Numbered from the stretch's first letter, positions 39,720 to 53,841 are shown. The stretch is DNA of 64,000 nt from Escherichia coli (GCF_003019035.1 NZ_CP027448.1), one strand, 5' to 3'. Notes: generated from the letters alone by a model not told the origin. Numbers and translations: made by a program.

Positions 39720-40496
39720 TCAGCCCCTGATTTTTGCCAGGGCATCCGCCATGCTGCGGATTTCGGCCCGGGCTTCCCGGACAACTTCCCGCAGAACACC
39801 ACGGTCAAACCTCTGGCGGGGCGGTTCATCCGGTATACGCAGCACATCGCAGGCCAGCCCACTGGACAGGATATGTTCAATACAATCGCTGACCAGATAC
39901 ATTTCCACCGCCGAAAAACGTGCGCCCCGGTTCAGGATGGCATCGAGCACCACGGGCAGGTTTTCGTCGTCCTCATCGAGCCAGCAGGGGTGATCGCTTT
40001 CCTTCACGACCAGGCGAAAGCGGCGCGTCTGGCGGGTCAGTAACGTCTGACCAGTGGTGGTCAGCGCCGCCCGGATACGCCGCGTATCTTCTGCCACCCG
40101 GCAACTGACACTGCGTACCGCATCGCGCACCGCCGCAAGTACAGCCCTGATTTCGTCTTCGGTCAGCCATTCACCGGCATACGGAAAAGACACCTGCGTT
40201 CCGTCTGCCGGAAGTACCGGCAGCGACTGCCACTGACTGCCGGACAGTACAAGTTCCTCCCCGGTTCCGGTCAGTTTGTGAATGGCGGAGGCCAGGAGCG
40301 GCGGCAGTACGCCGCCGTGACGGTTTATAAGTAACGTCGCCAGCTGGGGCGCATCCAGCCGCACGTAAATGCTGATCCAACCCGGATAGTTCGGGTTTCG
40401 CTGGTCAACATCAGTCTCTTCCGGCCAGCCCTGCGCCAGCAGCAGGTCGCGGGCGTGACGACAAATCAGTGCATTCAGCGTTGTGTTTTCGTTCAT
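39720..40496 (-). CDS. Hypothetical leading-region protein (258 aa), function unknown
   Basis: Uninterrupted ORF in operon context; no family recognised. Confidence 0.55.
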
Positions 40497-40541
40497 GATT
40501 AATCGTTCTCCCTGTATCGCCGCCCGGAGGCGGCGATAACA

Positions 40542-40976
40542 TCAGTCGTTTTCGTGTGTGTTGTTTTTCAGCAGGCTGCGGGTCTGATTAACCACCGCCT
40601 GACGGCGGGTGACGCATTCCGGGACGGCGAGGCCGTTATCACGGGCGGCCCATTCACGCTTCCACAGTGCCTGTTCAGCGGTCTGAATCAGGGACGCCAG
40701 CAGTTCAGCAGGGACGGTCACCTGGCGGTTTTCACTCACGTTGCTGATAATCTCCATCGCCGCACAGGAAGAAATACCGGACTCAGTCCGCTGGTCTTCC
40801 GGGATGTCCTCCAGCCGCGCCAGGACGGTCCTGATTTCATGATCGGACAGGGAAATATCCATTCCGTCAGCGAGGGCCTGAGTTTCTTCCGGGGACCAGA
40901 TAACCAGCATCAGCGGCGTGTCTCCCGGATACTGCGCTGCCAGCTCCCGGCACAGCGTTTCGCATGTTCCGTACAT
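40542..40976 (-). CDS. Acidic leading-region protein (DUF1380-like), paralog of 38413-38835
   Basis: 144 aa starting MYGTCETLCRELA... Confidence 0.6.
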   Translation of the reverse strand: MYGTCETLCRELAAQYPGDTPLMLVIWSPEETQALADGMDISLSDHEIRTVLARLEDIPEDQRTESGISSCAAMEIISNVSENRQVTVPAELLASLIQTAEQALWKREWAARDNGLAVPECVTRRQAVVNQTRSLLKNNTHEND

Positions 40977-40989
40977 TCTCGTCTCCTTC

Positions 40990-41211
40990 TCAATCTTTGA
41001 AGCAGGAATCCAGTTCCAGAATTTCGGTATACGCCTCCATAAACAGGCGATTGGCGCGATACAGCGTCTGGCGTGTCAGGCGTTCAACAAGCACATCGGA
41101 ATCAAAGCGACAGCGATGCTCCATATCGTTCAGCCTGGCCCGAAGGTCACACATGGTGTTGGCCACCTCCGCCACGTCGGCGCGAAGTTTTTCGTGTCCG
41201 GCATAGTTCAT
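40990..41211 (-). CDS. Small hypothetical protein (73 aa)
   Basis: Directly abuts the upstream methyltransferase gene (41212). Confidence 0.45.
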   Translation of the reverse strand: MNYAGHEKLRADVAEVANTMCDLRARLNDMEHRCRFDSDVLVERLTRQTLYRANRLFMEAYTEILELDSCFKD

Positions 41212-41895
41212 TTACGCAGCCTCCGGTTCAAACCAGTTATCATTCGCGGCCCCCTGCTGCATGGCCCGTTGCACGGCGGCCATTCGTTGCTGTCCGGCAC
41301 GGTGATACTGTTCAAGCAGCTCGATACCGATATACCGGCGTCCGGACTGAAGGGCGACCACGCAGGTTGAGCCGCTGCCTGCAAACGGGTCCAGCACAAT
41401 CGCGTTCGGATGTGTGAAGCTCTCAATCAGTGGTTGCAGGCTGGTAACGGGCTTTTCCGTCGGGTGATGGCGGTTGCCTGAATATTTCCAGCCCAGCACG
41501 TCCGGCAGCAGGTTTTGTGGCAGACGTGGACGGCCTTTTGCCAGGATGTAGGCGCATTCGTGGCGATAGCCCACATATGCGGCCTTCGATGTGTAGTTTT
41601 TGGTGAAGACCAGGTGCTCGACCACACTGAATCCCGCATTTTTCCAGGCGGCCATAAAGCGATCGACGCGGTTCCAGCCATAGAGGCTCACCATCAGCGC
41701 GTCTTTTTTCAGCACACGGTACATTTCATTACAGGCCGGTTGCAGCCATTCATCGGTTTTATCACCCGCGATGGTACGTCCCTGACGGTCACGAAAACCG
41801 ACGAGGTACGGCGGGTCAGTCAGCATGAAATCAATGGCGTTATCAGGGATACGGGCCATAACATCGATGCAGTTACCGAGGACAAAACGGGACAT
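41212..41895 (-). CDS. DNA methyltransferase (N6-adenine/N4-cytosine family, DPPY motif), orphan
   Basis: 227 aa with DPPY (motif IV) preceding FAGSGST (motif I); no cognate nuclease nearby. Confidence 0.85.
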   Translation of the reverse strand: MSRFVLGNCIDVMARIPDNAIDFMLTDPPYLVGFRDRQGRTIAGDKTDEWLQPACNEMYRVLKKDALMVSLYGWNRVDRFMAAWKNAGFSVVEHLVFTKNYTSKAAYVGYRHECAYILAKGRPRLPQNLLPDVLGWKYSGNRHHPTEKPVTSLQPLIESFTHPNAIVLDPFAGSGSTCVVALQSGRRYIGIELLEQYHRAGQQRMAAVQRAMQQGAANDNWFEPEAA

Positions 41896-42278
41896 AACAA
41901 CGCTCCTTCTTTCACAGAGGGCACCGGGAGGGCCCCCTGTGGTGCCCGTTCCCCGCTGCCTGTGGGCTGTTCACCGCGTCCGGTAACTGGTCAGGCCGAC
42001 CGTGGAATACCGCAGCCGTCGTCTTTTTGACGGCAAGGTTATGCCGCGAAAGCGGCTTGAAGGGCGTTCATCAGAAAAGGGCGACGGGCTGGCGTACACT
42101 GTCACCGACGCCAGCCGGGAGCGGTAAAAGCGACCGTTCCGTGCCCGCCGGACGCGGGACACTGACCACAGGCAGCGTTCCTGCCGCGCCGCGTCAGCCG
42201 GCGCAGTAAAAAGAGGAGCACGGCGACATCCTTTGTCGGAAAAGAAACGGGCGGTTGCCCGCCCGTCTCCGTCATACT

Positions 42279-43205
42279 TCATCCGCCATAATGCGCCACA
42301 TTGTCGACTATCCACGCAGGTCCGGTGACCTCCGGCAGCTCATCGTCATCTGTCGGGGAAGACCATTCCTGTTCCCCCCACAGAACATCAACAAGCTCTC
42401 CACGCTCATATCGCTGCCAGCCACAGAAATTGCAGCCCTGTTCGGCATACCAGTGCTCCAGCGTGCAGCCGAAACGGCGGCTTAATTCTGCAACAACGTC
42501 GCTTTCCGGCTGACACCACGGCGTGTCAAAATCCACCTGAATGAAGTTTTCTCCCTGACGGCCGATATTCAGGTCATACCCACAAGGCCACTTCACGCCA
42601 TACCGTTCCGTATACCAGTGATATGCAGAAGGAACACCGTTCAGAACACCACCGTTAAAGCCGTTCACTTCAACATCCAGGCGGGTCGGCAGAACCGTCA
42701 GCAGGTCAAACGGCATGGTTTTTTCCGGCACTACGTTGTCACACAGACGGTTCCACCACACCGATACATCCTCGTTACTCCAGAAGCCACACCAGTCACC
42801 TCTTTTTGCGGTGAAAAGTGCGGTGATGGTATCCCTGACATCGTCCGGTAATCCTTCCCAGCGACGCTGTCCAGTACCGCTCTGCAGCCAGAGTTCATGC
42901 AGCATCAGGCAGTTTTGCTCATCCAGCAGTACACCGTCCTGCAGATATGTCAGCCAGCGGGTGAACGCGATATTCTCCGGCGATACAACGCCACGCCCGG
43001 CAGCCGTCAGTCCGGGGCATGGTTCAAACCGCACATCTTCAGTGGTCTGCAGAAGTCCGGCACTTCCGGCCAGAAACAGCTGAATACCTTCATTTGTGGC
43101 GCGGCGATAAAGCGGTGTGACTGCGCCGCTGGCCAGTCGTTTAATCTCAGCGATCTGTGCCGGTTCACCAGAAAAATACATACGATTCGAGCACCAGTTT
43201 GGCAT
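42279..43205 (-). CDS. Conserved leading-region protein with MPNWCxN N-terminus (DUF1281/Api92-like as recalled), 308 aa
   Basis: ATG 43205 preceded by GAGGAGA; track ORF starts 43250. Family name from memory. Confidence 0.65.
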   Translation of the reverse strand: MPNWCSNRMYFSGEPAQIAEIKRLASGAVTPLYRRATNEGIQLFLAGSAGLLQTTEDVRFEPCPGLTAAGRGVVSPENIAFTRWLTYLQDGVLLDEQNCLMLHELWLQSGTGQRRWEGLPDDVRDTITALFTAKRGDWCGFWSNEDVSVWWNRLCDNVVPEKTMPFDLLTVLPTRLDVEVNGFNGGVLNGVPSAYHWYTERYGVKWPCGYDLNIGRQGENFIQVDFDTPWCQPESDVVAELSRRFGCTLEHWYAEQGCNFCGWQRYERGELVDVLWGEQEWSSPTDDDELPEVTGPAWIVDNVAHYGG

Positions 43206-43559
43206 GGGAATTCTCCTCTCACATGCGGCCTCCATCAGGCCGTGCCGCACCTGTAACCGGGCGACCGCATACGAATGCAGGTGCGGCCCCGAAGCCGCAG
43301 CGCGTGGAGGAGGAACGACGAAACGTGACCGGGTGAGGAGGCCGGCGACAGCGACACACTTGCATCGGATGCAGCCCAGTTAACGTGCCGGCACGGCCTG
43401 GGTAACCAGGTATTTTGTCCACAGAACCGTGCACAAAATGCTGTGGATAAGCTGGACACAGCAGCCCACAGCAGGCATACAGCCACACCCTCAGAGAATT
43501 GAACGTTTTTTAGCCGCAACAATGACATTTGACTGTATGTGGATTCAGTTATTAGAATG

Positions 43560-43598: not shown

Positions 43599-43847
43599 AT
43601 GATCCGCATTGAAATTCTTTTCGACCGCCAGAGCACAAAAAACCTCAAATCAGGCACACTTCAGGCGCTACAGAATGAAATCGAACAACGACTGAAACCA
43701 CACTACCCGGAAATCTGGCTGCGTATAGACCAGGGCAGCGCCCCGTCTGTATCTGTCACAGGAGCCCGCAACGACAAGGATAAAGAACGTATCCTGTCTC
43801 TGCTGGAAGAAATCTGGCAGGACGACAGCTGGCTGCCTGCAGCATGA
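43599..43847 (+). CDS. impC: DinI-like small protein (ImpC-like)
   Basis: 82 aa MIRIEILFDRQ...EEIWQDDSWLPAA; start chosen downstream of the LexA box. Confidence 0.75.
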   Translation: MIRIEILFDRQSTKNLKSGTLQALQNEIEQRLKPHYPEIWLRIDQGSAPSVSVTGARNDKDKERILSLLEEIWQDDSWLPAA

Positions 43848-44281
43848 GTACCGTTTATCACCGTCCGGCTGACCCTTCAGGCGATGACAGTTACGTGCGA
43901 CCGTTGTTTGCCGATCGTTGCCAGGCCGGTTTTCCTTCGCCTGCCACTGATTATGCTGAGCAGGAACTGGATCTGAACAGCTATTGCATCAGCAGACCTG
44001 CAGCCACCTTCTTTCTGCGCGCCAGCGGTGAATCGATGAACCAGGCTGACGTGCAGAATGGTGATCTGCTGGTAGTGGACAGGGCCGAAAAACCACAACA
44101 CGGGGACATCGTTATCGCTGAGATCGACGGTGAGTTCACCGTCAAACGACTGCTGTTGCGCCCACGCCCGGCACTGGAGCCGGTTTCAGACAGCCCGGAG
44201 TTCCGCACACTGTATCCGGAAAACATCTGTATTTTTGGTGTTGTCACTCACGTGATACACAGGACGCGGGAGTTACGCTGA
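43844..44281 (+). CDS. impA: UmuD/ImpA-like S24 peptidase subunit of error-prone polymerase
   Basis: 145 aa with Ser-Lys dyad context (ASGESM ... FTVKRL). Confidence 0.88.
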   Translation: MSTVYHRPADPSGDDSYVRPLFADRCQAGFPSPATDYAEQELDLNSYCISRPAATFFLRASGESMNQADVQNGDLLVVDRAEKPQHGDIVIAEIDGEFTVKRLLLRPRPALEPVSDSPEFRTLYPENICIFGVVTHVIHRTRELR

Positions 44282-44407
44282 TGTTTACACTGGCTGATAT
44301 CAACAGTTTCTACGCCTCATGTGAAAAAGTTTTCCGCCCGGACCTTCGCAACGAACCGGTCATCGTACTCAGCAATAACGATGGCTGTGTGATCGCACGC
44401 AGCCCAG
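44281..44407 (+). pseudogene. impB: 5' fragment of umuC/impB-like Y-family polymerase gene, interrupted by insertion
   Basis: Translates MFTLADINSFYASCEKVFRPDLRNEPVIVLSNNDGCVIARSP then homology is lost at 44408. Confidence 0.85.
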
Positions 44408-44453
44408 ATTATGTGGAATTGCAAGTAACGTTGTAGTGCTGATGAGGAAAATT

Positions 44454-46682
44454 TTATCTGACTACAATATTGATATCGTTTTCCGCAACAATCAGCATCA
44501 CGGCAGGTAAACCCTCCACACGCATTTTCTGGTGTAATTTTTTGATTAAATTATCATCTTCATTACTGGCTTTTGCGGAAAAGCCTTGTGGATGGGAGTG
44601 CCATTCGCCAACATAATCGACAACACGAGCGGTCAACTGGTGAACCCGTTCTAATGCTTCTTGTTGTCCCGCTTCTCCCCGGACAAAGGAGGCTGGAGAG
44701 GATTTACTGTCGATAGGTTCAGGGAGCACGTCAACCAGAATAATCGTTTTGTTCTTAAAATCTGTTATGCCAACAATTGCACCTCCTGTTTCATTAGGCA
44801 GTGCCTGTAAGCGGGTGTGCTGCAATTTTTGCGCTAAGCCCTGGTCATATTTAACAACCCATTCGCCAGAAATTATAGATACCACGGAATAGAGTTCAAT
44901 TTCATGTGCATCCATCGCGCCTGATATTTCATCAGATACCCAGATACACAATCGAGCATTTCCTTTGAGTGCAGTCTGGCGAAGTTGGCGTGAGAGGATA
45001 CCGGCATGAACATGAATACATTCACTGGACATACGTACAGAAATATCCCGACATCCACCACCGACCCAACGATCGCCATAATTGTGCTGTAGGTGAGTAC
45101 TTCCCCACTCACTGCTCAAAATTGCCCGATAGTATTGCCCCTCAATTGCATCAATTCGGCATTGTCTGTCTACATCCTCCATTAACATCACGCTAGACTG
45201 ACCCGATGGAGTCAGAAACAGGCTAACTATTCTGGGTATATCATCTTTTAACACTAGAGTCCTCGGCACCTCAAAGGTGGTACTGACATCCACAACTAAG
45301 TCTGCCTCATTCATTGCCTTAGCAATATCATCATCGTCATCAAGAATACTTTTATGGATCGCCTGAGGGAGGGGCTCATGCGGATAAATAGATTTGGCAA
45401 TATGCTGAATAATATGGGGTTTTGAGACTCCAATATGACAATCAAACCCAATATGGCGAGACAAATTATGTGGAAGAAGCCGATCTGGATCAATAAAAGT
45501 CCATGTCCCCCACCCCATTCGAATCCAAATATCAGCCAATGTACTACCAAGAGCGCCAACTCCAGCTAAAATACCTCGAAAAGCTGCACTCTCTGAATCA
45601 ACAGCAGATATGTCTCTCGCATGTGTGGCCTTCATAGCCGAACGTATTTCAACTGGTAAAAGCGGTAATTGTCGCCACTTGGTACTAATTGATCCGCCAA
45701 GAAGCCGTACGCGATGCTGTACTCCTCGCTCATTTTTTGGCGCCAGCATATCTAGTGCAGTGGCAAGTTCACCGAGTGAACTTTGCACAACATAGCCCAT
45801 CACATCCGTACGTTCTGTTTCTCCGTTTCTTAGACGGGGGATCCAAAGCAGGATAAGTAAGCCTTCTCCTTTACCAGACGTTGGGCGGATACCATCACTT
45901 GGTATTGCTTCATAAACAGCGTCAGTTAGTGGTTTTAGGAGCTCACTTCCCCATTCATTAAGTTGTTCTTCTAATTTTCCCAGATTATCCGGGTATGTAG
46001 CCACCGTAGAAACATCGACAGGAGGAACAGCAATAGTTAATAAGCGAAATGGCTTAACGCTTGAGGTATCTTGTTCTGGTACAGCCCTTAAAATAATCGG
46101 TCGCCCCTCACTGACCATCTGGAGACTGAGCTTATTGTCAGTCGCGTGATGATAATCGGGGTAATTGGCTGGCAAAATGAGCTGATAGGGACTCAAATAA
46201 AAAAGTTGCTCAAGTGGCTGATCTTCTCGATGTAGATGCAGTTCGGCCGATTCTCTAAGCCACCAAAAAATGCGCTCAAGGAATCTCTCGGGGGTCCAAC
46301 TGCGCTCAACTGCGCTCCAGGAGGCCTCATATAGGCAAAGAATTCGTGGTGAGCCAGGTTCTCCAGCATGCTGGTGAGAAAGAACAGGGAAATCTTTCCG
46401 CAATGCATGAACCAAGATAGGTATGCTTGATTTGGGATTGACCTCAATAGCCAATCGTTCTTTACGACGAATACGGGCTTGATTACCAGAAGCCACAGTC
46501 CCATCAGCAGCATCAATGATTAGATATTCCGAGCGGTTATCATTTATTTCAGAAAATCGTAATTCTCTGACTGTGACGTAAGGATGATTCTCGCATGCTT
46601 TAAGCAGCGAAATCGTTTGTGGATAAAGGCTATCGCGCCCCGATGAATCGAGGCGCTCACCCAATTCGAAATATTCGATCAT
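44454..46682 (-). CDS. Multidomain E2-like / E1-like (ThiF) / JAB-JAMM peptidase fusion protein (742 aa)
   Basis: HQH..10 aa..C (E2-like), GILAGVGALGSTLADIW...IDPD (ThiF Rossmann), EWHSHPQGFSAKASNEDD (JAMM HxH..S..D) read directly from the translation; ATGA overlap with upstream MBL gene. Confidence 0.75.
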   Translation of the reverse strand: MIEYFELGERLDSSGRDSLYPQTISLLKACENHPYVTVRELRFSEINDNRSEYLIIDAADGTVASGNQARIRRKERLAIEVNPKSSIPILVHALRKDFPVLSHQHAGEPGSPRILCLYEASWSAVERSWTPERFLERIFWWLRESAELHLHREDQPLEQLFYLSPYQLILPANYPDYHHATDNKLSLQMVSEGRPIILRAVPEQDTSSVKPFRLLTIAVPPVDVSTVATYPDNLGKLEEQLNEWGSELLKPLTDAVYEAIPSDGIRPTSGKGEGLLILLWIPRLRNGETERTDVMGYVVQSSLGELATALDMLAPKNERGVQHRVRLLGGSISTKWRQLPLLPVEIRSAMKATHARDISAVDSESAAFRGILAGVGALGSTLADIWIRMGWGTWTFIDPDRLLPHNLSRHIGFDCHIGVSKPHIIQHIAKSIYPHEPLPQAIHKSILDDDDDIAKAMNEADLVVDVSTTFEVPRTLVLKDDIPRIVSLFLTPSGQSSVMLMEDVDRQCRIDAIEGQYYRAILSSEWGSTHLQHNYGDRWVGGGCRDISVRMSSECIHVHAGILSRQLRQTALKGNARLCIWVSDEISGAMDAHEIELYSVVSIISGEWVVKYDQGLAQKLQHTRLQALPNETGGAIVGITDFKNKTIILVDVLPEPIDSKSSPASFVRGEAGQQEALERVHQLTARVVDYVGEWHSHPQGFSAKASNEDDNLIKKLHQKMRVEGLPAVMLIVAENDINIVVR

Positions 46683-47866
46683 TGGTTTGATACACCTGCC
46701 CTAGGAGCGGCGGCCGTAGCAGCACTTACCGCAGCTGAAACAGCACCAACAATAGCGGGTATTAACTTCCCGTCTCCAGCCACTTCAAATTCAAGGAACG
46801 CTGTATCTTTAAGATCCCCCGTACAGCTAAACCAACCATCAACACTGTCCAGAATATCCTCATACTCACGCTTAGCCCGGATGCACGGTGGATCATAATC
46901 ATCATCAAGTATCTGATTGCTACTCGATACAATTGTTGCCCCGGAACGAGCCTGACCTAAAGCATTACGGGCCGCATCACAAACTTCAGCATTCTCCCCC
47001 CATTGTGACCAGCTATCATAGGAAAGTGAATGCCATGAACAATGATGCGGTGTGAGGAGAAGATCATATTCTAGTGCCTCAGCATTGCTTTTGTAACGAT
47101 CCCATAATCGCTCCCAGATGAGAACTTCTGCGTCTCCACCTAATAGAAAGTGCATAGGATTACGGGAATATGCAGAGGGCAGTATTTTCATGTTCATGAT
47201 GATACTGGATTCGTTTTTAGAAAGAGCTTCTTCCAAATATTCATCATCTTCATGTGGTGCGGGCGCCAGAAGCTGTGCGGAGAACACTTCTGAAATTTGC
47301 CCGTCAATTCTGGTGAATGTATCTCCAGCTTTGATAAGAATGGCACTCAGATCATCTGTTTTGCCATTAATATCTTCACCCATGATAAGGATTCGATTAC
47401 CGCTAGATGCATAACCATGTTCCCGCCAGTATTTTACTCGGCGCCGTGCTTCTGTATTAAATGCCTGAGCATCTTCGCAAAGTGTGTGACTTTTGGAACG
47501 ACGCCGAAAAATCAATGGTGATGACCACAATTCTCGAATAATGATACGCTTTTCTGAACGTTTCACATCGTCATCTGGATAATCTTCAGGACGGCCCAGC
47601 CAGAAATGTTTACGCAGGCCACCGCAATGATCCTGATCGGGATGACTGAGCATAAAAACATCAATAAAGGGACGATCTTTTTCATCATACTTCAATCTGC
47701 TACGTAATGCCGAGGCAACATCAGGTGTGTCATCATTGGGGTTATCAGCAGCAGAGCGAATATGTACATCAATCAGAATGGATGTGCCCCGGGTGTCGGC
47801 CAAACGTACCAGTGTCATATCACCGTTGCCGACTTGGAAAAAAGTAATTTTGGCTGCCATCGACAT
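46679..47866 (-). CDS. Metallo-beta-lactamase-fold protein (395 aa) with Ala/Gly-rich C-terminal tail
   Basis: MBL-like motifs ...LIDVH..., SHPDQDHCGG, ...TPHHCSWH...; C-terminus ...AIVGAVSAAVSAATAAAPRAGVSNQ. Confidence 0.75.
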   Translation of the reverse strand: MSMAAKITFFQVGNGDMTLVRLADTRGTSILIDVHIRSAADNPNDDTPDVASALRSRLKYDEKDRPFIDVFMLSHPDQDHCGGLRKHFWLGRPEDYPDDDVKRSEKRIIIRELWSSPLIFRRRSKSHTLCEDAQAFNTEARRRVKYWREHGYASSGNRILIMGEDINGKTDDLSAILIKAGDTFTRIDGQISEVFSAQLLAPAPHEDDEYLEEALSKNESSIIMNMKILPSAYSRNPMHFLLGGDAEVLIWERLWDRYKSNAEALEYDLLLTPHHCSWHSLSYDSWSQWGENAEVCDAARNALGQARSGATIVSSSNQILDDDYDPPCIRAKREYEDILDSVDGWFSCTGDLKDTAFLEFEVAGDGKLIPAIVGAVSAAVSAATAAAPRAGVSNQ

Positions 47867-47994
47867 CTCCTTTAGGGATACGAAAGATTGAGGTTAAGAG
47901 CATCTATTGCTAAGATACATCTAGTAATTATACTAGTCTAGTAATTAGACGTATATTTTGGACTTAAATTGTAAGTACAGGAAATTATTGATAA
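47867..47994. promoter_or_regulatory. Divergent promoter/operator region with tandem direct repeats (TCTAGTAATTA x2)
   Basis: AT-rich intergenic region between divergent MBL operon and WYL gene; repeats at about 47918-47950. Confidence 0.4.
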
Positions 47995-48849
47995 ATGAGT
48001 GATAAAATGGTGAGAACTGGTCATTGGAGCCAAGAAAGACGGCTTGAATTCATCGATTTTCGCCTACTGTGGGAAGGTCGGCTTAACCGTGCAGATCTCA
48101 CGACATTTTTCAGAATTTCAGTTCCGCAAGCCTCATTAGATTTGGCAAAATATCAAGAAGTTGCGCCAAACAACATGGTGTATGATCGAACTCAGAAGGC
48201 TTACATTACGACTCCTGATTTCAAACCTGTTTTTACAAGCTTTGACAGTAATCATTACCTGAATGAACTACTTGGGCGAGAAAATGAAATAGTGGATCCT
48301 GATGATAGTTTCATTGGGTGGGTACCCCCGGTAGCCAGCCTTCCTCTCCCTGCCAGGAAAGTACAACCTGAAATATTGATTGATTTAATTCGAGCCATGC
48401 AAAGAAAACAGGCTTTGGTTGTTGATTATCGCTCAATGACTAATGAACCAGCAATTCGTACGCTATACCCAACAGCATTTGCACATGATGGGCATCGGTG
48501 GCATGTTCGTGCTTATTGTTTTAAGTCTACAATGTTTAAAGATTTTGTTCTTGGTAGGTTTTTTAAAATCGTTGAATTTGTTTCCCCACCGACATCAATT
48601 CCACAAGATGTGGACTGGAATACATTTATTGACGTGGTAATAGGTCCAAACCCTAACTACGATATGAATAAACGGCTATCTATTGAACATGATTATCAAA
48701 TGGTAAAAGGAGAAGCAAAAATCCACATACGTAAAGCGCAATTATATTATCTTAATCGTCGATTAAATTTGGATGTAAATAGCGATGGTTCAATAGATGA
48801 CAAACAGCAGATCATCATGCTCAGAATAGACGAGTCTAAAACCTATTAA
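47995..48849 (+). CDS. HTH-WYL domain transcriptional regulator (BrxR/CapW-like)
   Basis: 284 aa; central ...HDGHRWHVRAYCFKSTMFKDFVLGRFFKI... fits the WYL pattern; N-terminal HTH-like region. Confidence 0.7.
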   Translation: MSDKMVRTGHWSQERRLEFIDFRLLWEGRLNRADLTTFFRISVPQASLDLAKYQEVAPNNMVYDRTQKAYITTPDFKPVFTSFDSNHYLNELLGRENEIVDPDDSFIGWVPPVASLPLPARKVQPEILIDLIRAMQRKQALVVDYRSMTNEPAIRTLYPTAFAHDGHRWHVRAYCFKSTMFKDFVLGRFFKIVEFVSPPTSIPQDVDWNTFIDVVIGPNPNYDMNKRLSIEHDYQMVKGEAKIHIRKAQLYYLNRRLNLDVNSDGSIDDKQQIIMLRIDESKTY

Positions 48850-48861
48850 GGGAATATTTAT

Positions 48862-49380
48862 ATGAATGCGAATGATGTTAACAAACGGAATAAAGAATGG
48901 ATGATTGTAATCATTATTATCTATCTTTTTATTTTGTTATGTATAGCAACATACGCTATTGGGGCTATGTCTCTAGGTTGGTTACCAACACCTTACGCAC
49001 CATTAAGGGTGCCACTGATGTGCGGAGCAATTGCCTATATAGGTGGTTGTTTATATTGTTTTCGTGCAATTTACCTCAATAAATGTATTAGAAAACAATG
49101 GGATCCAGATTGGCATGTATGGTATTTCATTCGCCCACTGACCAGTACAATCGCAGGTGCTATCAGTTATTTATTCCTTAAGGCGGGGTTGTTAGTTTTG
49201 GAGTCTAGTTCCAATGTAGGAGCTAGTGAAATGGGTTTCTTTGCGCTGGCATTTATTGCTGGTTTTAACGTCGATAAATTTGTCGCAAAAATCGAGGAAG
49301 TTGCAAAGGCTGTCTGGGGTATTGAAAAAACTCGAAGCTCGACTAATAATGATGCGAAAAATTCGGAAAAAAAAGAATAG
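48862..49380 (+). CDS. Small membrane protein (about 4 predicted TM helices, 172 aa)
   Basis: Hydrophobic segments throughout; 12 bp downstream of the WYL gene. Confidence 0.55.
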   Translation: MNANDVNKRNKEWMIVIIIIYLFILLCIATYAIGAMSLGWLPTPYAPLRVPLMCGAIAYIGGCLYCFRAIYLNKCIRKQWDPDWHVWYFIRPLTSTIAGAISYLFLKAGLLVLESSSNVGASEMGFFALAFIAGFNVDKFVAKIEEVAKAVWGIEKTRSSTNNDAKNSEKKE

Positions 49381-49426
49381 TCTGGATGTATTTAAATTAA
49401 AATGAAATTAGTGCTGAGCTATTTTA

Positions 49427-50746
49427 TTACTTTCTCTTATTTCCTGGGGTCGCGCCCCCAGTGAGCTTATTCAAAAGTTTGTCCACTGCCTGTATATCGT
49501 TTTCTACAGCGGCTTGTTCGTCATCAGTCAAAGGGATTTCCTGCATCAGCTTGAGTAGATTCTGGCGACCTTCCAAGTATTGTGCTTCAGATGAAGATTT
49601 TGGCATATAAAATGAGCATTTTGCACATGCCATCCGATGGGGGCATTGCTCAAAAAAGTCATAAGTACAGAAACCGTGTCCAAGATCATAATAACGCCAT
49701 GGCTTCCCGGATGCTACCAGCCCTTCAGCTATCGCGTCTTGATCAATGAGAACTGAAACCATGCGGCGATTACATTCAAAGTAACCAGCTTTATCCAGTG
49801 ATCCTGCCAACCTCGTCGGTGTAATTTCGACATAATGTCGGGTAGATTCAGGTGAAGAATGCCCCAACCATTTCTGTAGCTCAAAAATATCAAGTGGTTC
49901 CCTGGCGTTGTAAAGCTGACTGGCTATAGTGGCTCTTGCCCGATGGCTGGTGATTTTACCTCTGGCATCCTGCTCAGGTATACCAGCCTTTCTGCATAGC
50001 AAAGGGATTAGCGAATTATTAATATAACTACTGTGTACCCGTTTCCCCCTGTGCATGAACAAAAAACGGACGCTTTCACCTGTTTTAGAATCTTCCTGGA
50101 GGGGGTGGGGGTTACGAACAAGTTCCCATTGTTCGATATATTCCCCGATAATAGGGTCAACTGGCTTTGTGAATGCCGCGTAAGTCTTGCTAACGGGTAC
50201 ATCTATCAGACAGATACGGGATACATTATTTTCTTCTGGCTGTTGCCAGCGGATACACCCACACTGCATACGTAGAATTTCATCACGTCTGAGGCCTCCA
50301 AATAACCAGAGAACGCTGAGTGCTCTGACCATCTCCAGTGGATAAAAATAAGGATATGCAACACAGTTTGGTAAATCCGACTCCTGCAGGTTCTGTCCGG
50401 CGTGAAGTAATTTACACCACATATCATCGGCCACAATACGAGGCTCTGGTCCAACCAGGGAAGTCAAGCTACGCGGTGCCCTGAAAACTCTTTCTGGGCT
50501 GAATCGTACAGGTATCCATCCCCATTCCTGCAAGTCATGAAAGAAAGTTCTAATATGACCCAACATCCTGGCTCTCGCTGCAGGCATCATCATTTTGCCA
50601 CGACGGTCACGATACATGCCCCCAGGGGTTGCCCATTCACCAACTTTCATTCTACAAGCGGCGGTCACCCAGACGATCGCGGTGTCCCGTGTCCAATCAG
50701 ATGGTGACAGACAGGTTGGATAGCACTCAGCTAACCAGCTGACCAC
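49427..50746 (-). CDS. Tyrosine recombinase/integrase (439 aa)
   Basis: Catalytic signature residues: ...GGLRRDE..., ...SHRARAT..., ...LGHSSPESTRHYV... Confidence 0.85.
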   Translation of the reverse strand: MVSWLAECYPTCLSPSDWTRDTAIVWVTAACRMKVGEWATPGGMYRDRRGKMMMPAARARMLGHIRTFFHDLQEWGWIPVRFSPERVFRAPRSLTSLVGPEPRIVADDMWCKLLHAGQNLQESDLPNCVAYPYFYPLEMVRALSVLWLFGGLRRDEILRMQCGCIRWQQPEENNVSRICLIDVPVSKTYAAFTKPVDPIIGEYIEQWELVRNPHPLQEDSKTGESVRFLFMHRGKRVHSSYINNSLIPLLCRKAGIPEQDARGKITSHRARATIASQLYNAREPLDIFELQKWLGHSSPESTRHYVEITPTRLAGSLDKAGYFECNRRMVSVLIDQDAIAEGLVASGKPWRYYDLGHGFCTYDFFEQCPHRMACAKCSFYMPKSSSEAQYLEGRQNLLKLMQEIPLTDDEQAAVENDIQAVDKLLNKLTGGATPGNKRK

Positions 50747-51677
50747 ACTTTAGCAAAACGTACCAACCGGACAAAATAGATGAAGGGCGAAGTACTGAGG
50801 TAGCACGCCACCGTTTGCACCATACCAGCCATTTAGTTGGTACATCAGCTGTTGCATTATATTCGCGGGGAGGACGGCGACGTTGTGTTATTCGGTAATC
50901 AACCCCTTCCTCAATAGTCCCTGATGCAGCCAGTATACGCGATAGAGTAGCTGAGGCTTCCCGGAGGGAATCCGGGCACGTTGCAGCAATCTGTTGCAAC
51001 GTGGTCACGGTGATATGGTCTAGTTGAGCATCCCTTTGCAGAAGCATTGCCATACACATGGCATTTCTGATGCCGTTGTTCCGACTATCACGAGGCACAT
51101 ATCCCAGAACCTGCATCATATTGTCAAGCTGGCTGACGGCAAAATCGGTGCTCTGTCGGCCAAAAACCTTAAGACAGAGCCGATATTGATAGAATATGCC
51201 ACAGTGTTCCAGCCGCTCAAACCCACATAGCAACCATGCTAACGCTATAACATATTGCCGACAGTTGCCGCTGGCTCCAAACCGTCGACGAAATTCCCCT
51301 TCGCTGTTGCAAATAACTTCTAACCACTCTTCTTGTGTCCAGGCCCAGTATGTTTTCCGGATGCGCTGCATCTCTAGGACTATATCGTGAATAGATGAAT
51401 TGTAGGGGGCCTTGGCCGCATGCATTTTTGTTAGCGTGTCGCGTAGTGGTAAAAGAAGGCGGGAAAGCCGTTTTTGTATATCAGGTGACCAGTTTTTACC
51501 TCCTTGCTGGAAGTGGTCGACCAATGTATCCAGTGCCGCAAGCTCGCTTTCAGAGATCTCCGATCGGGTATCCCAAAGTAGGGCAGGAAGACTGAGTGAT
51601 GTTGTCGGACAAGGCGCTGTATGTTCAGATTGCATCATGGAGAAGGATCCTGCTGTTGTAGTACAGTAAGGCGGCAA
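50727..51677 (-). CDS. Recombinase-operon middle gene (316 aa), divergent/uncertain
   Basis: Overlaps both neighbours (translational coupling); no clear R-H-R-Y motifs seen by eye. Confidence 0.55.
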   Translation of the reverse strand: MPPYCTTTAGSFSMMQSEHTAPCPTTSLSLPALLWDTRSEISESELAALDTLVDHFQQGGKNWSPDIQKRLSRLLLPLRDTLTKMHAAKAPYNSSIHDIVLEMQRIRKTYWAWTQEEWLEVICNSEGEFRRRFGASGNCRQYVIALAWLLCGFERLEHCGIFYQYRLCLKVFGRQSTDFAVSQLDNMMQVLGYVPRDSRNNGIRNAMCMAMLLQRDAQLDHITVTTLQQIAATCPDSLREASATLSRILAASGTIEEGVDYRITQRRRPPREYNATADVPTKWLVWCKRWRATSVLRPSSILSGWYVLLKCGQLVS

Positions 51678-52687
51678 GTATGCAAGGATGCGACCGTGTA
51701 ATTGAAACGACTACTCAGATCACGTGCGCTGAGATGAATATAGAGCAGAGTTGACTGGATACGACGGTGGCCAGCGAATGCAGCAATTTCGTGGATGTCC
51801 CACCCCACGCGTGCCAGTTCTGTCAGACAAAGATGTCGGAATGTGTGGGTGCTGATGAGTGGAAGATCAGCCTTAATAGCTAAACCGCGAACTACTTTTG
51901 ACCAAGTCCAGTTGCTAATAGGTTCTGCCCGATTACGCGGAGAGCGTGAGAGAAACAACGGACCGCGAGATGAGCTTAGCATACGACGTTCAGTGAGCCA
52001 TGCTGTGTAGAGTTCCCCCGTCACAGGAGAATAGGGCACAACCCGACCAAAGCGGTTTTTGGTATGCTCAGCGCGCACAGTGAGCAAGCGTTGAGAAGGG
52101 TCAATATCTCCGGTAGCTACTGTGCAAAGTTCTTCTCTGCGTAATCCGCAGTCGTAGGCCAGTGCCAGCATAAAACGAGTACGGATATCAGCTTGTCCGG
52201 CTACCTCAAGAAAGCGCAACCACTCCGCATCATCCGGGATCCACGGTAGCCGCCGCTGCAACGGCACTATACCAGCTTTTCCTTTCCCTCCGTTTTTCCA
52301 GACACCTCGTCTGACAGGATTTCTCTCCCGTATCCCCTCCTCACAAAGCCAATAGTTGTACAGTCGTACCACCGTCAGCCGGTGGCGGATAGTGGCAGCT
52401 GCCAGCTGGCGACCGGTATGCAGGCTGCGGACATAGAGTGCGACCGTATCACGTCCAGCGACAGCAGCCGTCAGGGCAACAGAGTGACAGAAAGCGAGCC
52501 AGTCATTGACGCCACGGGCATAGGCATCAATGGTGTTTGGAGCACACAGCAGGTCCTCCTGCAGGCACACCCACCGGCAAGCTGAAGGATCGGCCGACAG
52601 AAAAGGCAGCGCATCCAGCAGTTTCTTGTGCACAGCATCCCCCTTTTCGATAACAGAATGTGTTGTATGAAATATAGTCAATTCCAA
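51635..52687 (-). CDS. Tyrosine recombinase (XerC/D-like, 350 aa)
   Basis: ...CGLRREEL..., ...HTFRHLCLTELA..., ...GHRRIQSTLLYIH...; start lies 9 bp from element end. Confidence 0.85.
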   Translation of the reverse strand: MELTIFHTTHSVIEKGDAVHKKLLDALPFLSADPSACRWVCLQEDLLCAPNTIDAYARGVNDWLAFCHSVALTAAVAGRDTVALYVRSLHTGRQLAAATIRHRLTVVRLYNYWLCEEGIRERNPVRRGVWKNGGKGKAGIVPLQRRLPWIPDDAEWLRFLEVAGQADIRTRFMLALAYDCGLRREELCTVATGDIDPSQRLLTVRAEHTKNRFGRVVPYSPVTGELYTAWLTERRMLSSSRGPLFLSRSPRNRAEPISNWTWSKVVRGLAIKADLPLISTHTFRHLCLTELARVGWDIHEIAAFAGHRRIQSTLLYIHLSARDLSSRFNYTVASLHTCRLTVLQQQDPSP

Positions 52688-52696
52688 ATAACATAG

Positions 52697-53841
52697 AAGC
52701 GAAGCGGCTGGGCATAAAAATGGGAGTACCGTGGTTTCAGCTGAAGTCGGTGAAATTTCCGGAGCCGGTCATCGCCTTCTCCAGTAATTACGCGCTATAC
52801 GCATCGATGTCGAACAGGGTTATGTCTCATCTCGAGGAGCTGGCGCCGGGCGTGGAGCAGTACAGTATTGATGAGATGTTTCTCGACGTGCGGGGTATTG
52901 ACAGCTGCATCGATTTCGAGGATTTCGGCCGGCAGCTGCGTGAACACGTCAGGAACGGGACTGGCCTGACTATCGGTGTCGGAATGGGGCTAACCAAAAC
53001 GCTGGCAAAGTCAGCACAGTGGGCTTCCAAAGAGTGGCCACAGTTTGGTGGCGTGCTGGCGTTAACGCCAGGCAATATCCGCCGTACGGAAAAACTGCTG
53101 TCACTGCAGCCGGTGGAGGAAATCTGGGGGGTAGGCAGCAGGATATCAAAGAAGCTGAACACAATGGGGATAACAACTGCACTGCAGCTGGCGCGCGCTA
53201 ACCCTGTATTTATCAGGAAAAACTTCAATGTGGTTCTGGAGAGAACGGTCCGGGAACTCACCGGAGAAAGCTGTATTTCACTGGAGGAAGCACCGCCCCC
53301 CAAACAGCAGATAGTCTGCAGCAGGAGCTTTGGGGAACGTGTCACAACTTATGAAGCCATGCGACAGGCAGTTTGTCAGTACGCTGAGCGTGCAGCTGAA
53401 AAGCTGCGCGGCGAGCGTCAGTTCTGCAGGCATATTGCCGTGTTTGTGAAAACATCGCCGTTCGCCGTAAATGAGCCCTACTACGGTAATCTGGCCAGTG
53501 AAAAACTGCTCATCCCCACGCAGGATACACGGGACATCATTGCCGCTGCCGTCAGAGCTCTGGACAGGATCTGGGGGGATGGTCACCGTTACGCAAAGGC
53601 AGGCTGTATGCTGAACGATTTCGCTCCTGACGGGGTTTCGCTGTTGAACCTGTTCGATGATACTCAGCTCCGAAGCAACAGCAATCAGCTGATGAAAGTT
53701 GTGGACGGTATTAATCATTCAGGACTCGGAAAAGTGTGGTTTGCAGGCCGGGGGATTGCATCTGAATGGCAAATGAAACGGGAGATGCTTTCACCAGACT
53801 ATACAACTCGCTGGTCTGAACTACCAGTAGCGAAATTATGA
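52697..53841 (+). pseudogene. impB: 3' portion of umuC/impB-like Y-family polymerase gene (continues frame of 44281-44407)
   Basis: EAKRLGIKMGVPWFQLKSVKFPEPVIAFSSNYALYASMSNRVM...SRSFGERVTTYEAMRQAV... matches remembered UmuC/MucB; track ORF 52720-53841 starts at internal Met. Confidence 0.88.

What the first reader, a model, noticed from the sequence alone, without database searches (positions are those of the whole stretch)
46679..46760. Ala/Gly-rich flexible C-terminal tail on the MBL-fold protein: possible conjugation substrate
The MBL-fold protein ends ...AIVGAVSAAVSAATAAAPRAGVSNQ, a low-complexity tail directly upstream of the E1/E2/JAB gene. In type II CBASS the E1-E2 enzyme adenylates and conjugates the C-terminus of its partner enzyme, and JAB peptidases trim C-terminal extensions. 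The tail may be the site processed (for example after ...RAG) and conjugated by the downstream fusion protein.
Basis: inference. Interest (0 to 1): 0.7.

Follow-up and report, generated by a model that had tools for sequence, protein, structure and literature searches.

The report
Conjugation handle on 6A-MBL defence enzyme
The floppy alanine-rich tail is real and conserved: it most likely lets the neighbouring ubiquitin-ligase-like enzyme attach this phage-defence hydrolase to a target, as in a known class of bacterial immune systems, so it is a well-supported but expected feature.

Summary
The minus-strand ORF 46679..47866 ends ...PAIVGAVSAAVSAATAAAPRAG-VSNQ* and overlaps (ATGA) the start of a 742-aa E2-E1-JAB protein.

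Both genes are members of the named anti-phage system 6A-MBL (NCBIfam equivalogs; Iyer 2006, Table 1 row 6a).

The tail is predicted to be disordered. In homologues its length is kept (about 25-28 residues after the globular domain) but its sequence is not, except at the end.
- 108 of 115 close relatives have P[RK]AG there, followed by 0-8 unconserved residues; 20 stop exactly at the Gly.
- Across the whole family, 59 of 79 cluster representatives end in Gly or Ala (p about 3e-20).
- The PRAG codons vary at all synonymous sites, so selection acts on the protein.

This is the signature of type II CBASS CD-NTases and of ubiquitin-like precursors. The partner protein keeps the E2 Cys, the E1 adenylation motifs and Cys, and the JAMM site. 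Its E1 domain is closest to Cap2.

Best reading: Gly391 is the adenylated and conjugated residue, and VSNQ is a propeptide removed by the JAB domain. Published work already states that MBL pathways conjugate their enzyme. No biochemistry was possible, and an E1-tail fusion model was inconclusive.

The parts
46679..47866 (-). Gene for the 6A-MBL system MBL-fold hydrolase (395 aa; RefSeq start at Met3)
   Evidence: ORF. NCBIfam NF058524 scores 425.6 bits against a cut-off of 220. AlphaFold2 pLDDT is 92.1. The closest folds are the ComEC MBL domain, Pce and RNase Z/J. Metal-site residues are invariant.
46706..46759 (-). Flexible Ala/Val/Ser/Gly-rich linker, residues Pro370-Ala387
   Evidence: Residues 374-395 have pLDDT below 50 and no secondary structure. 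The sequence is not conserved, but the distance from the nearly invariant Gly366 to the terminal Gly/Ala has median 27 and IQR 25-28 in 119 homologues.
46694..46705 (-). Pro388-Arg389-Ala390-Gly391 motif. Gly391 is the predicted mature C-terminus that is adenylated and conjugated
   Evidence: P[RK]AG is present in 108 of 115 close homologues, and 20 end exactly at this Gly. Family-wide, the terminal residue is Gly in 92% and Ala in 8%. Codons vary at all synonymous sites.
46682..46693 (-). Val392-Ser393-Asn394-Gln395: predicted C-terminal propeptide removed before conjugation
   Evidence: Extensions after the Gly are 0-8 residues long and unconserved, with about 60 different sequences among 108 homologues. 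The inference that it is removed rests on the Cap3 and Bil precedents.
44454..46682 (-). Gene for the Cap2_3 triple-module protein (E2-E1-JAB, 742 aa). Its start overlaps the MBL stop codon as ATGA
   Evidence: NCBIfam NF058523 scores 661 bits against a cut-off of 320. Pfam finds Prok-E2_A, ThiF and Prok-JAB. The overlap is shown.
46161..46484 (-). E2 (UBC-like) domain, residues 67-174, with His103 and catalytic Cys116
   Evidence: Pfam PF14457. His103 and Cys116 are invariant in 31 aligned homologues and at least 97% conserved in 71.
44868..45665 (-). E1 adenylation domain, residues about 340-605 (G374xG376xxG379, Asp398, Asn406, Arg409, Lys421, catalytic Cys544)
   Evidence: Conserved residues are. 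The best solved-structure sequence match is Cap2 7TO3 at E=1.8e-17. The model's six best fold matches are all Cap2, with TM 0.81-0.86.
44457..44861 (-). JAB/JAMM metallopeptidase domain, residues about 608-742 (Glu631, His695-x-His697, Ser706, Asp709)
   Evidence: Pfam PF14464. PADLOC JAB models reach E=6.7e-23. NCBIfam Cap3 gives a weak hit. The motif residues are invariant. The PDB peptidase 9ILD matches at E=4e-12.
47995..48849 (+). Divergent WYL-domain protein, the probable transcriptional regulator of the operon
   Evidence: Pfam WYL and PADLOC WYL. A WYL homologue sits divergently upstream in roughly half of the 80 related loci.
48862..49380 (+). 172-aa predicted membrane protein that travels with the system in the window's clade; role unknown
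   Evidence: Three hydrophobic segments. No Pfam, NCBIfam or PADLOC match. Homologues occur in 10 of the closest loci, either beside WYL or directly after cap2_3.

Best explanation
The tail is the conjugation handle of a 6A-MBL anti-phage system. This system works like type II CBASS, but with an MBL-fold phosphodiesterase or nuclease in place of the CD-NTase.

Proposed sequence of events:
1. The enzyme is made as a pro-form ending ...AAAPRAG-VSNQ.
2. The JAB domain of the co-translated E2-E1-JAB protein (Cap2_3) cuts after Gly391, removing VSNQ.
3. The roughly 25-residue disordered linker lets the new Gly391 carboxylate reach the Cap2-like E1 site, where it is adenylated.
4. It passes as a thioester to E1 Cys544 and then to E2 Cys116.
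5. It is ligated to an amine, probably a lysine, on an unknown target. This primes or positions the hydrolase for defence.
6. The same JAB domain reverses conjugates.

Shown here: the sequence, the predicted disorder, the conservation pattern, the intact catalytic motifs, the Cap2 likeness and the operon linkage.

Inferred: cleavage by JAB, adenylation, conjugation, and what conjugation does to the enzyme.
For: (1) Both proteins are above-cut-off members of the NCBIfam 6A-MBL equivalogs. The domain order is E2-E1-JAB.

(2) The tail, residues 374-395, is disordered in a confident model with pLDDT 92.

(3) 108 of 115 close homologues carry P[RK]AG. It is followed by 0 residues in 20 sequences, 2 in 13, 3 in 37, 4 in 34 and 6-7 in 3, and the extensions are unconserved.

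(4) Among 50%-identity cluster representatives, 59 of 79 end in Gly (44) or Ala (15). Most of the rest have the motif plus 1-8 residues. The binomial p is 2.8e-20 against a 25% null. Other ORFs of at least 200 aa in the same loci end in Gly or Ala 20% of the time.

(5) Tail length is constrained, with median 27 and IQR 25-28, while the linker sequence is free.

(6) All six Arg codons and all four Pro, Ala and Gly codons are used in PRAG.

(7) The MBL gene is followed by an E2-E1-JAB gene, or by split E2-E1 plus JAB genes, in 76 of the 77 loci where this could be judged.

(8) The E2 His/Cys, the E1 GxGxxG, Asp, Arg, Lys and Cys, and the JAMM Glu, HxH, Ser and Asp are invariant or at least 97% conserved.

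(9) The E1 domain is closest to Cap2 by sequence profile and by fold.

(10) Literature precedents: a Gly/Ala terminus only with Cap2 and Cap3 (PMC10097602); a disordered CD-NTase tail and Cap3 cutting exactly after the last residue of a fusion; JAB pre-processing in Bil and the statement that MBL pathways conjugate their enzyme (PMC11601596).

(11) MBL relatives without a Cap2_3 neighbour (P0125, P0151) lack the Gly tail and carry another C-terminal domain instead.
Against: There is no experimental evidence for this locus or, in the papers I could read, for any 6A-MBL system. The primary paper (van den Berg 2024) is not in the held library.

The AlphaFold2 fusion of the E1 domain, a linker and the processed tail did not dock confidently. 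The tail stayed below pLDDT 50. Only the last six residues rose above 50, with one beta-bridge at Ala302.

The negative control, MBL homologues without an E2-E1-JAB partner, is tiny (two architectures).

My detection of 'motif plus extension' in distant members uses a loose pattern and is partly circular. The terminal-residue count is not.

In CBASS most CD-NTases have no extension, so JAB pre-processing is borrowed from the Bil precedent and from Cap3's activity on an artificial fusion.
Confidence: 0.72

Rival explanations
1. The tail is a C-terminal membrane anchor (a tail-anchored transmembrane or amphipathic helix) that localises the hydrolase. It is not a conjugation substrate.
For: The window tail's best 19-residue Kyte-Doolittle mean is 1.87, above the usual 1.6 threshold, and 34% of close homologues also exceed it. 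A small membrane protein travels with the system in this clade.
Against: AlphaFold2 predicts no helix in the MBL context. Across family representatives the median hydropathy is 0.11 and none reaches 1.6; their tails are Gly/Ser/Thr/Lys/Pro-rich. A membrane anchor does not explain an invariant terminal Gly/Ala or the variable residues after it.
Confidence: 0.05
2. The tail has no function of its own. It is a low-complexity spacer, and the apparent motif is a DNA-level constraint, such as a ribosome-binding site or translational coupling for the overlapping cap2_3 start.
For: The two genes overlap by ATGA. In the window PRAG is encoded by CCT AGG GCA GGT, which contains Shine-Dalgarno-like AGG 12-17 nt upstream of the cap2_3 ATG.
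Against: The PRAG codons vary at every synonymous site in 27 non-redundant loci, and Arg uses CGN in 21 of them. The distance from the motif to the downstream start varies from 0 to 8 codons. Distant clades keep a terminal His-Gly, Tyr-Gly or Tyr-Ala with unrelated codons. Tail length is constrained.
Confidence: 0.04
3. The Gly391 handle is used for conjugation, but the short extension is a safety cap that the system's own JAB does not remove constitutively. Removal is the regulated step, carried out for example by a phage or host protease or only after infection. Alternatively, the tail acts as an autoinhibitory or degron element that JAB trimming relieves.
For: Extensions are present in about half of all family members and about 80% of the window's clade, which is unusual compared with CBASS CD-NTases. 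Sensing of phage proteases by cleavage of CD-NTase loops has been reported (10.64898/2026.03.04.709575).
Against: The extensions are too short and too variable, with no conserved residue right after the Gly, to be a specific protease site. Sister sequences with no extension are interspersed among close relatives, so the cap is dispensable. A peptidase with an intact active site is fused to the ligase in every complete locus.
Confidence: 0.12

Closest known systems
6A-MBL anti-phage system (Iyer, Burroughs and Aravind 2006, Table 1 row 6a, PMC1779556; NCBIfam NF058524 and NF058523; reported as anti-phage in Pseudomonas aeruginosa by van den Berg et al. 2024 as cited in PMC13276650 and PMC11601596)
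   Same: It is a two-gene operon: a specialised MBL-fold protein followed by one protein with E2, E1 and JAB modules in that order. Both window proteins score far above the curated cut-offs. A P. aeruginosa homologue is 76% identical (P0009).
   Different: Nothing differs in kind. This copy sits on enterobacterial IncF-type conjugative plasmids, in 236 PLSDB records. It has a WYL regulator, a small membrane protein and three tyrosine recombinases next to it. I could not read whether the tail, the PRAG motif or the propeptide has been described for the family.
Type II CBASS Cap2/Cap3 conjugation of the CD-NTase (Ledvina et al. 2023, preprint 10.1101/2022.03.31.486616; Jenson et al. 2023, PMC10097602)
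   Same: The E2-E1 ligase is Cap2-like by sequence and by fold, and the JAB is Cap3-like. The substrate is an enzyme, not a beta-grasp Ubl. [quoted passage not shown]
   Different: There is no CD-NTase and no cyclic-nucleotide effector; the conjugated enzyme is an MBL-fold hydrolase, presumably the effector itself. Cap2 and Cap3 are fused into one polypeptide. About half of the substrates carry a 1-8 residue extension after the Gly that would need removing, whereas the CD-NTase logos place the conserved residue at the very end.
Ubiquitin and Ubl precursors, and the Bil (bacterial ISG15-like) pathway, in which a JAB peptidase pre-processes the Ubl (as summarised in PMC11601596)
   Same: There is a conserved C-terminal Gly followed by a short unconserved propeptide. 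A JAB/JAMM peptidase is encoded in the same operon, and an E1 and an E2 are available for adenylation and transfer.
   Different: The conjugated moiety is a roughly 370-residue MBL enzyme with a flexible tail, not a beta-grasp domain. It has a single Gly preceded by Ala, His or Tyr rather than Gly-Gly. The E1 is Cap2/Atg7-like rather than a canonical two-domain E1.

Membership tests
6A-MBL anti-phage system | MBL-fold protein of the specialised 6A-MBL family | tested here: met
   NF058524 scores 425.6 bits against a cut-off of 220, covering residues 9-364. The model has an MBL fold.
6A-MBL anti-phage system | Single polypeptide with E2, E1 and JAB modules in that order | tested here: met
   NF058523 scores 661.1 bits against a cut-off of 320. 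Pfam finds Prok-E2_A at 67-174, ThiF at 369-472 and Prok-JAB at 617-734.
6A-MBL anti-phage system | The two genes are adjacent and co-oriented in one operon | tested here: met
   ATGA stop/start overlap at 46679-46682. The same arrangement occurs in 76 of the 77 related loci that could be judged.
6A-MBL anti-phage system | Confers protection against phage | not testable with these tools
   Reported for a P. aeruginosa system by a paper I could not read; it is cited.
Type II CBASS (membership) | CD-NTase signalling enzyme plus a cyclic-nucleotide-activated effector | tested here: not met
   No CD-NTase or CBASS effector model matched any of the four cassette proteins. The neighbours are umuD and tyrosine recombinases. 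It is therefore not a CBASS, although its ligase/peptidase module is of the CBASS type.
Cap2/Cap3-type substrate conjugation (works like) | [quoted passage not shown] | tested here: met
   Residues 374-395 have pLDDT below 50 and no secondary structure, in a model with mean pLDDT 92.
Cap2/Cap3-type substrate conjugation (works like) | C-terminal residue conserved as Gly or Ala in substrates encoded with E2-E1 and JAB | tested here: met
   59 of 79 representatives end in Gly or Ala, p=2.8e-20. In the aligned logo the terminal position is 92% Gly and 8% Ala. The window protein itself has the Gly four residues from its end.
Cap2/Cap3-type substrate conjugation (works like) | Intact E1 adenylation motifs, E1 catalytic Cys and E2 catalytic Cys | tested here: met
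   G374, G376, G379, D398, N406, R409, K421, C544, H103 and C116 are invariant in A3 and at least 97% conserved in 71 homologues.
Cap2/Cap3-type substrate conjugation (works like) | Intact JAMM metallopeptidase site | tested here: met
   E631, H695, H697, S706 and D709 are invariant.
Cap2/Cap3-type substrate conjugation (works like) | Substrate C-terminus binds in the E1 adenylation site | tested here: inconclusive
   In the AlphaFold2 model of E1(340-605), a (GGS)5 linker and tail(370-391), the E1 domain is above pLDDT 90 but the tail is below 50. The exception is the last six residues, at about 50-60, with one beta-bridge. No coordinates were available.
Cap2/Cap3-type substrate conjugation (works like) | Thioester intermediates and isopeptide conjugates are formed; JAB cleaves after the terminal Gly | not testable with these tools
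   This needs biochemistry or mass spectrometry.
Ubiquitin-like modifiers | Beta-grasp fold of the conjugated moiety | tested here: not met
   The conjugated protein is an MBL-fold enzyme. Its best fold matches are the ComEC MBL domain, Pce and RNase Z/J.

The most novel reading that the evidence does not exclude
The 2-8 residue cap after the conserved Gly is a regulated licence. The hydrolase is kept unconjugatable until the cap is removed in response to infection.

In the window's clade, the unusually hydrophobic Ala/Val-rich tail together with the co-travelling 172-aa membrane protein would direct conjugation to a membrane-associated target, a protein or even a lipid amine as with Atg8. The effect would be to localise a nuclease or phosphodiesterase rather than simply to prime it.
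Probability: 0.1. Interest if true: 0.65.

Novelty: new member of a known kind. Interest (0 to 1): 0.35.

Why it matters
The locus is an uncharacterised, plasmid-borne enterobacterial copy of a defence system whose biochemistry has not been published in anything I could read.

The comparative analysis turns a general statement, that MBL pathways conjugate their enzyme, into precise and cheap experiments:
- a predicted mature C-terminus at Gly391;
- a predicted 428-Da propeptide, VSNQ;
- named catalytic residues to mutate.

It also shows that Cap2/Cap3-type handles (a flexible tail plus a terminal Gly or Ala) are portable between unrelated enzymes. That is useful for recognising further conjugated effectors from sequence alone.

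It does not change how these systems are understood.

Tried and rejected
- **Transmembrane anchor.** The window tail alone looks hydrophobic (KD 1.87), but the family does not (median 0.11) and no helix is predicted. Rejected.
- **RBS or DNA-level conservation of PRAG.** Rejected by the synonymous codon variation.
- **DNA tandem repeat as the origin of the low complexity.** None found.
- **Natural MBL-Cap2_3 fusions as evidence for cleavage.** P0128 and P0154 are frameshift-like artefacts. P0138 is MBL + ...RPHG + an unrelated 250-aa region with no Cap2_3 nearby. Not usable.
- **Single-sequence search of the 742-aa protein against PDB.** It found only a weak ThiF-like hit. The family profile was needed to reach Cap2.
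- **Docking surrogate (E1 domain fused to the tail).** Inconclusive. The tool returns no coordinates, so the pose cannot be inspected, and no structure jobs remained for a JAB-tail or full-length model.
- **Pfam on the MBL protein.** No hit at all.
- **The primary 6A-MBL paper.** It could not be read by DOI or PMID. Four further full-text searches found no description of the MBL tail.
- **Negative set of MBL homologues lacking an E2-E1-JAB partner.** A proper set could not be assembled. Only two such architectures were seen.
Full report
**1. What is in the sequence.**
On the minus strand, ORF 46679..47866 encodes a 395-aa protein. The stretch has 10 Ala, 4 Val, 3 Ser and 2 Gly in 26 residues, so it is Ala-rich rather than Gly-rich. 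The TGA stop overlaps the ATG of the next ORF (44454..46682, 742 aa) as ATGA. No tandem DNA repeat underlies the stretch.

**2. Identity of the two proteins.**
NCBIfam names both above its curated cut-offs:
- NF058524, 'anti-phage 6A-MBL system MBL-fold protein': 425.6 bits against a cut-off of 220.
- NF058523, 'anti-phage 6A-MBL system cap2_3 protein': 661.1 bits against a cut-off of 320.

The NF058524 profile ends at residue 364, so the tail lies outside the curated model.

Pfam sees nothing in the MBL protein. In the partner it finds Prok-E2_A (67-174), ThiF (369-472) and Prok-JAB (617-734). PADLOC finds CBASS-type E1-E2 and JAB models.

The name comes from row 6a of Table 1 in Iyer et al. 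[quoted passage not shown] Later papers cite van den Berg et al. 2024 for anti-phage activity of 6A-MBL in Pseudomonas aeruginosa. I could not read that paper.

**3. The tail in the structure model.**
I ran AlphaFold2 with a 128-sequence family alignment (A1). It gives pLDDT 92.1 and pTM 0.91. The only low-confidence segment is residues 374-395, with pLDDT below 50 and no secondary structure.

The core's best solved-structure matches are the ComEC beta-lactamase-like domain (E=1e-12), the phosphorylcholine esterase Pce, RNase Z and RNase J. These are phosphodiester hydrolases. The metal-site residues His75, Asp79, His80, Asp245, His274 and His275 are invariant, and Asp77 is nearly so.

**4.
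There are 2503 homologues at E<=1e-5, and their lengths cluster at about 386-398 aa.

Close homologues (115 full-length, 56-83% identity):
- 108 carry P[RK]AG near the end.
- It is followed by 0 residues in 20 sequences, 2 in 13, 3 in 37, 4 in 34, 6-7 in 3, and 32 in 1 that is probably an artefact.
- The extensions comprise about 60 different sequences. Among the closest relatives alone they include VSNQ, AIG, TVNQ, LSKKYND, ACGQ and TPEQ.

Representatives of 50%-identity clusters (79 of full length, 27-58% identity):
- 59 end in Gly (44) or Ala (15), mostly as His-Gly, Tyr-Gly or Tyr-Ala.
- Most of the rest show such a dipeptide followed by 1-8 residues.
- Against a conservative 25% null (the Gly+Ala content of the tails), p=2.8e-20. 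Other ORFs of at least 200 aa in the same loci end in Gly or Ala 20% of the time.

In the aligned family:
- The inferred terminal position is 92% Gly and 8% Ala.
- Position -1 is Ala, His or Tyr.
- The linker before that is free apart from being rich in small residues.
- The distance from the nearly invariant Gly366 to the terminal Gly/Ala is constrained, with median 27 and IQR 25-28.

So length, flexibility and the terminal residue are selected, and the linker sequence and everything after the Gly are not. This is the pattern of ubiquitin-like precursors. It also matches what Jenson et al. reported for CD-NTases: the C-terminal residue is conserved as Gly or Ala only in operons with full-length Cap2 and Cap3 (PMC10097602).

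**5. Two trivial explanations excluded.**
- *DNA-level constraint.* In the window PRAG is encoded by CCT AGG GCA GGT, which looks like a ribosome-binding site for the overlapping gene. However, in 27 non-redundant loci all six Arg codons and all four Pro, Ala and Gly codons occur, and the spacing to the downstream start varies. Selection is therefore on the protein.
- *Membrane anchor.* The window tail reaches a Kyte-Doolittle 19-residue mean of 1.87. Family representatives have a median of 0.11 and none reaches 1.6. No helix is predicted in the MBL context.

**6. The partner and the operon.**
A scan of one genome per species returned 336 relatives, of which 80 loci were kept, from Proteobacteria, Cyanobacteria, Acidobacteriota, Nitrospinota and others.

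- The MBL gene is followed on the same strand by a fused E2-E1-JAB gene in about 72 loci.
- It is followed by split E2-E1 and JAB genes in four: L023, L040, L042 and L044. There the MBL ends directly in ...Tyr-Ala or ...Phe-Ala.
- Two loci are cut by contig ends, and one has a truncated MBL with no partner.
- A four-base ATGA overlap is the commonest junction.

Across 71 fused homologues the following are at least 97% conserved, and they are invariant in a cleaner 31-sequence alignment:
- E2: His103 and Cys116.
- E1: Gly374-x-Gly376-x-x-Gly379, Asp398, Asn406, Arg409, Lys421 and Cys544.
- JAMM: Glu631, His695-x-His697, Ser706 and Asp709.

The family profile's best solved-structure match is Enterobacter cloacae Cap2 (7TO3, E=1.8e-17). 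It ranks ahead of TcdA, MoeB, MccB, ThiF, UBA5, BubCD and ATG7. The JAB part matches a 156-aa peptidase (9ILD, E=4e-12). A model of the E1 domain has Cap2 structures as its six best fold matches, with TM 0.81-0.86.

**7. Mechanistic precedents.**
[quoted passage not shown] They found that the C-terminus sits in the Cap2 adenylation site. [quoted passage not shown] They state that 'Type II CBASS ... What I add is the comparative evidence for the exact residue and for a propeptide.

**8. Docking surrogate.**
I imitated the published Cap2(E1)-CD-NTase-tail fusion. The construct was window E1 residues 340-605, a (GGS)5 linker and tail residues 370-391, with a 47-row paired alignment taken from the loci (A2).

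The E1 domain is confident. The tail stays below pLDDT 50 apart from the last six residues (AAPRAG), which sit at about 50-60, with one beta-bridge at Ala302. In the MBL-only model the whole tail is at about 41-49.

This is at most a weak hint of contact.

**9. Best explanation and how sure.**
Gly391 is the mature, adenylated and conjugated C-terminus. VSNQ is a propeptide removed by the fused JAB domain. The roughly 25-residue linker provides the reach. Transfer goes through Cys544 and then Cys116 to an unknown amine, and JAB also reverses conjugates.

- Conjugation at Gly391: confidence about 0.75.
- JAB as the processing enzyme: about 0.6.
- The consequence for the hydrolase (priming, localisation or targeting): unknown.

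Rivals are a membrane anchor (0.05), a non-functional spacer or DNA constraint (0.04), and a regulated or externally removed cap, degron or autoinhibitor (0.12).

**10. Novelty and interest.**
The system is known and named, and the mechanism class is known. This is an uncharacterised plasmid-borne member. The cassette is 100% identical in E. coli IncF plasmids and is present in 236 PLSDB records, mostly Klebsiella.

The propeptide and cleavage-site prediction is specific and testable, but unsurprising to a specialist. Interest is 0.35.

Noticed in passing
window 44282-52719 (recombinases at 49427..50746, 50727..51677 and 51635..52687, all minus strand; umuD 43844..44281; truncated umuC 52720..53841): The defence cassette is followed by three consecutive, overlapping tyrosine recombinase genes, which looks like a 'recombinase in trio' element. 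The whole block of about 8.4 kb lies between umuD and an N-terminally truncated umuC, so it appears to be a mobile insertion into the plasmid's umuDC operon.
   Followed up: partly
window 48862-49380 (+); L002, L006-L014: A 172-aa protein with three hydrophobic segments has no family match. It is strongly conserved (E=1e-64 to 1e-89) in 10 of the closest Pseudomonas and gammaproteobacterial loci. It sits either after the WYL gene, as here, or immediately after cap2_3, so it is likely a clade-specific extra component of unknown role. The same clade has the most hydrophobic tails.
   Followed up: partly
L023, L040, L042, L044 (Bryobacterales and Bdellovibrionales MAGs): A variant of the system has Cap2-like E2-E1 (580-676 aa) and JAB (154-190 aa) as separate genes. 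In these loci the MBL protein ends directly in ...Arg-Tyr-Ala or ...Gly-Phe-Ala with no extension.
   Followed up: partly
L083 (P0125, 504 aa); P0151 (532 aa): These MBL homologues, about 40-50% identical, replace the Gly-terminated tail with an extra C-terminal domain (Pfam AGS_C on record). No E2-E1-JAB gene lies downstream. They are a small natural negative control.
   Followed up: partly
L082 2698-4593 (P0138, 631 aa): An MBL homologue keeps ...Arg-Pro-His-Gly internally and continues for about 250 residues with no family match. It sits beside an HTH repressor and a Peptidase_M78 gene, which resemble CapH/CapP-type regulators, and has no Cap2_3 gene nearby. It could be a different architecture or an assembly artefact.
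   Followed up: no
window 47995-48849 (+) and about 40 of the loci L001-L080: A WYL-domain protein is encoded divergently upstream of the MBL gene in about half of the loci across phyla. This suggests CapW/BrxR-like transcriptional control of the system.
   Followed up: partly
window 39720-43250 (minus strand): The neighbouring genes are typical of an IncF plasmid leading region: a DNA methylase at 41212..41895, and annotated antirestriction, DUF1380 and DUF1281 genes in the identical plasmid CP055749.1. The defence cassette therefore sits next to the plasmid's own anti-defence genes.
   Followed up: no
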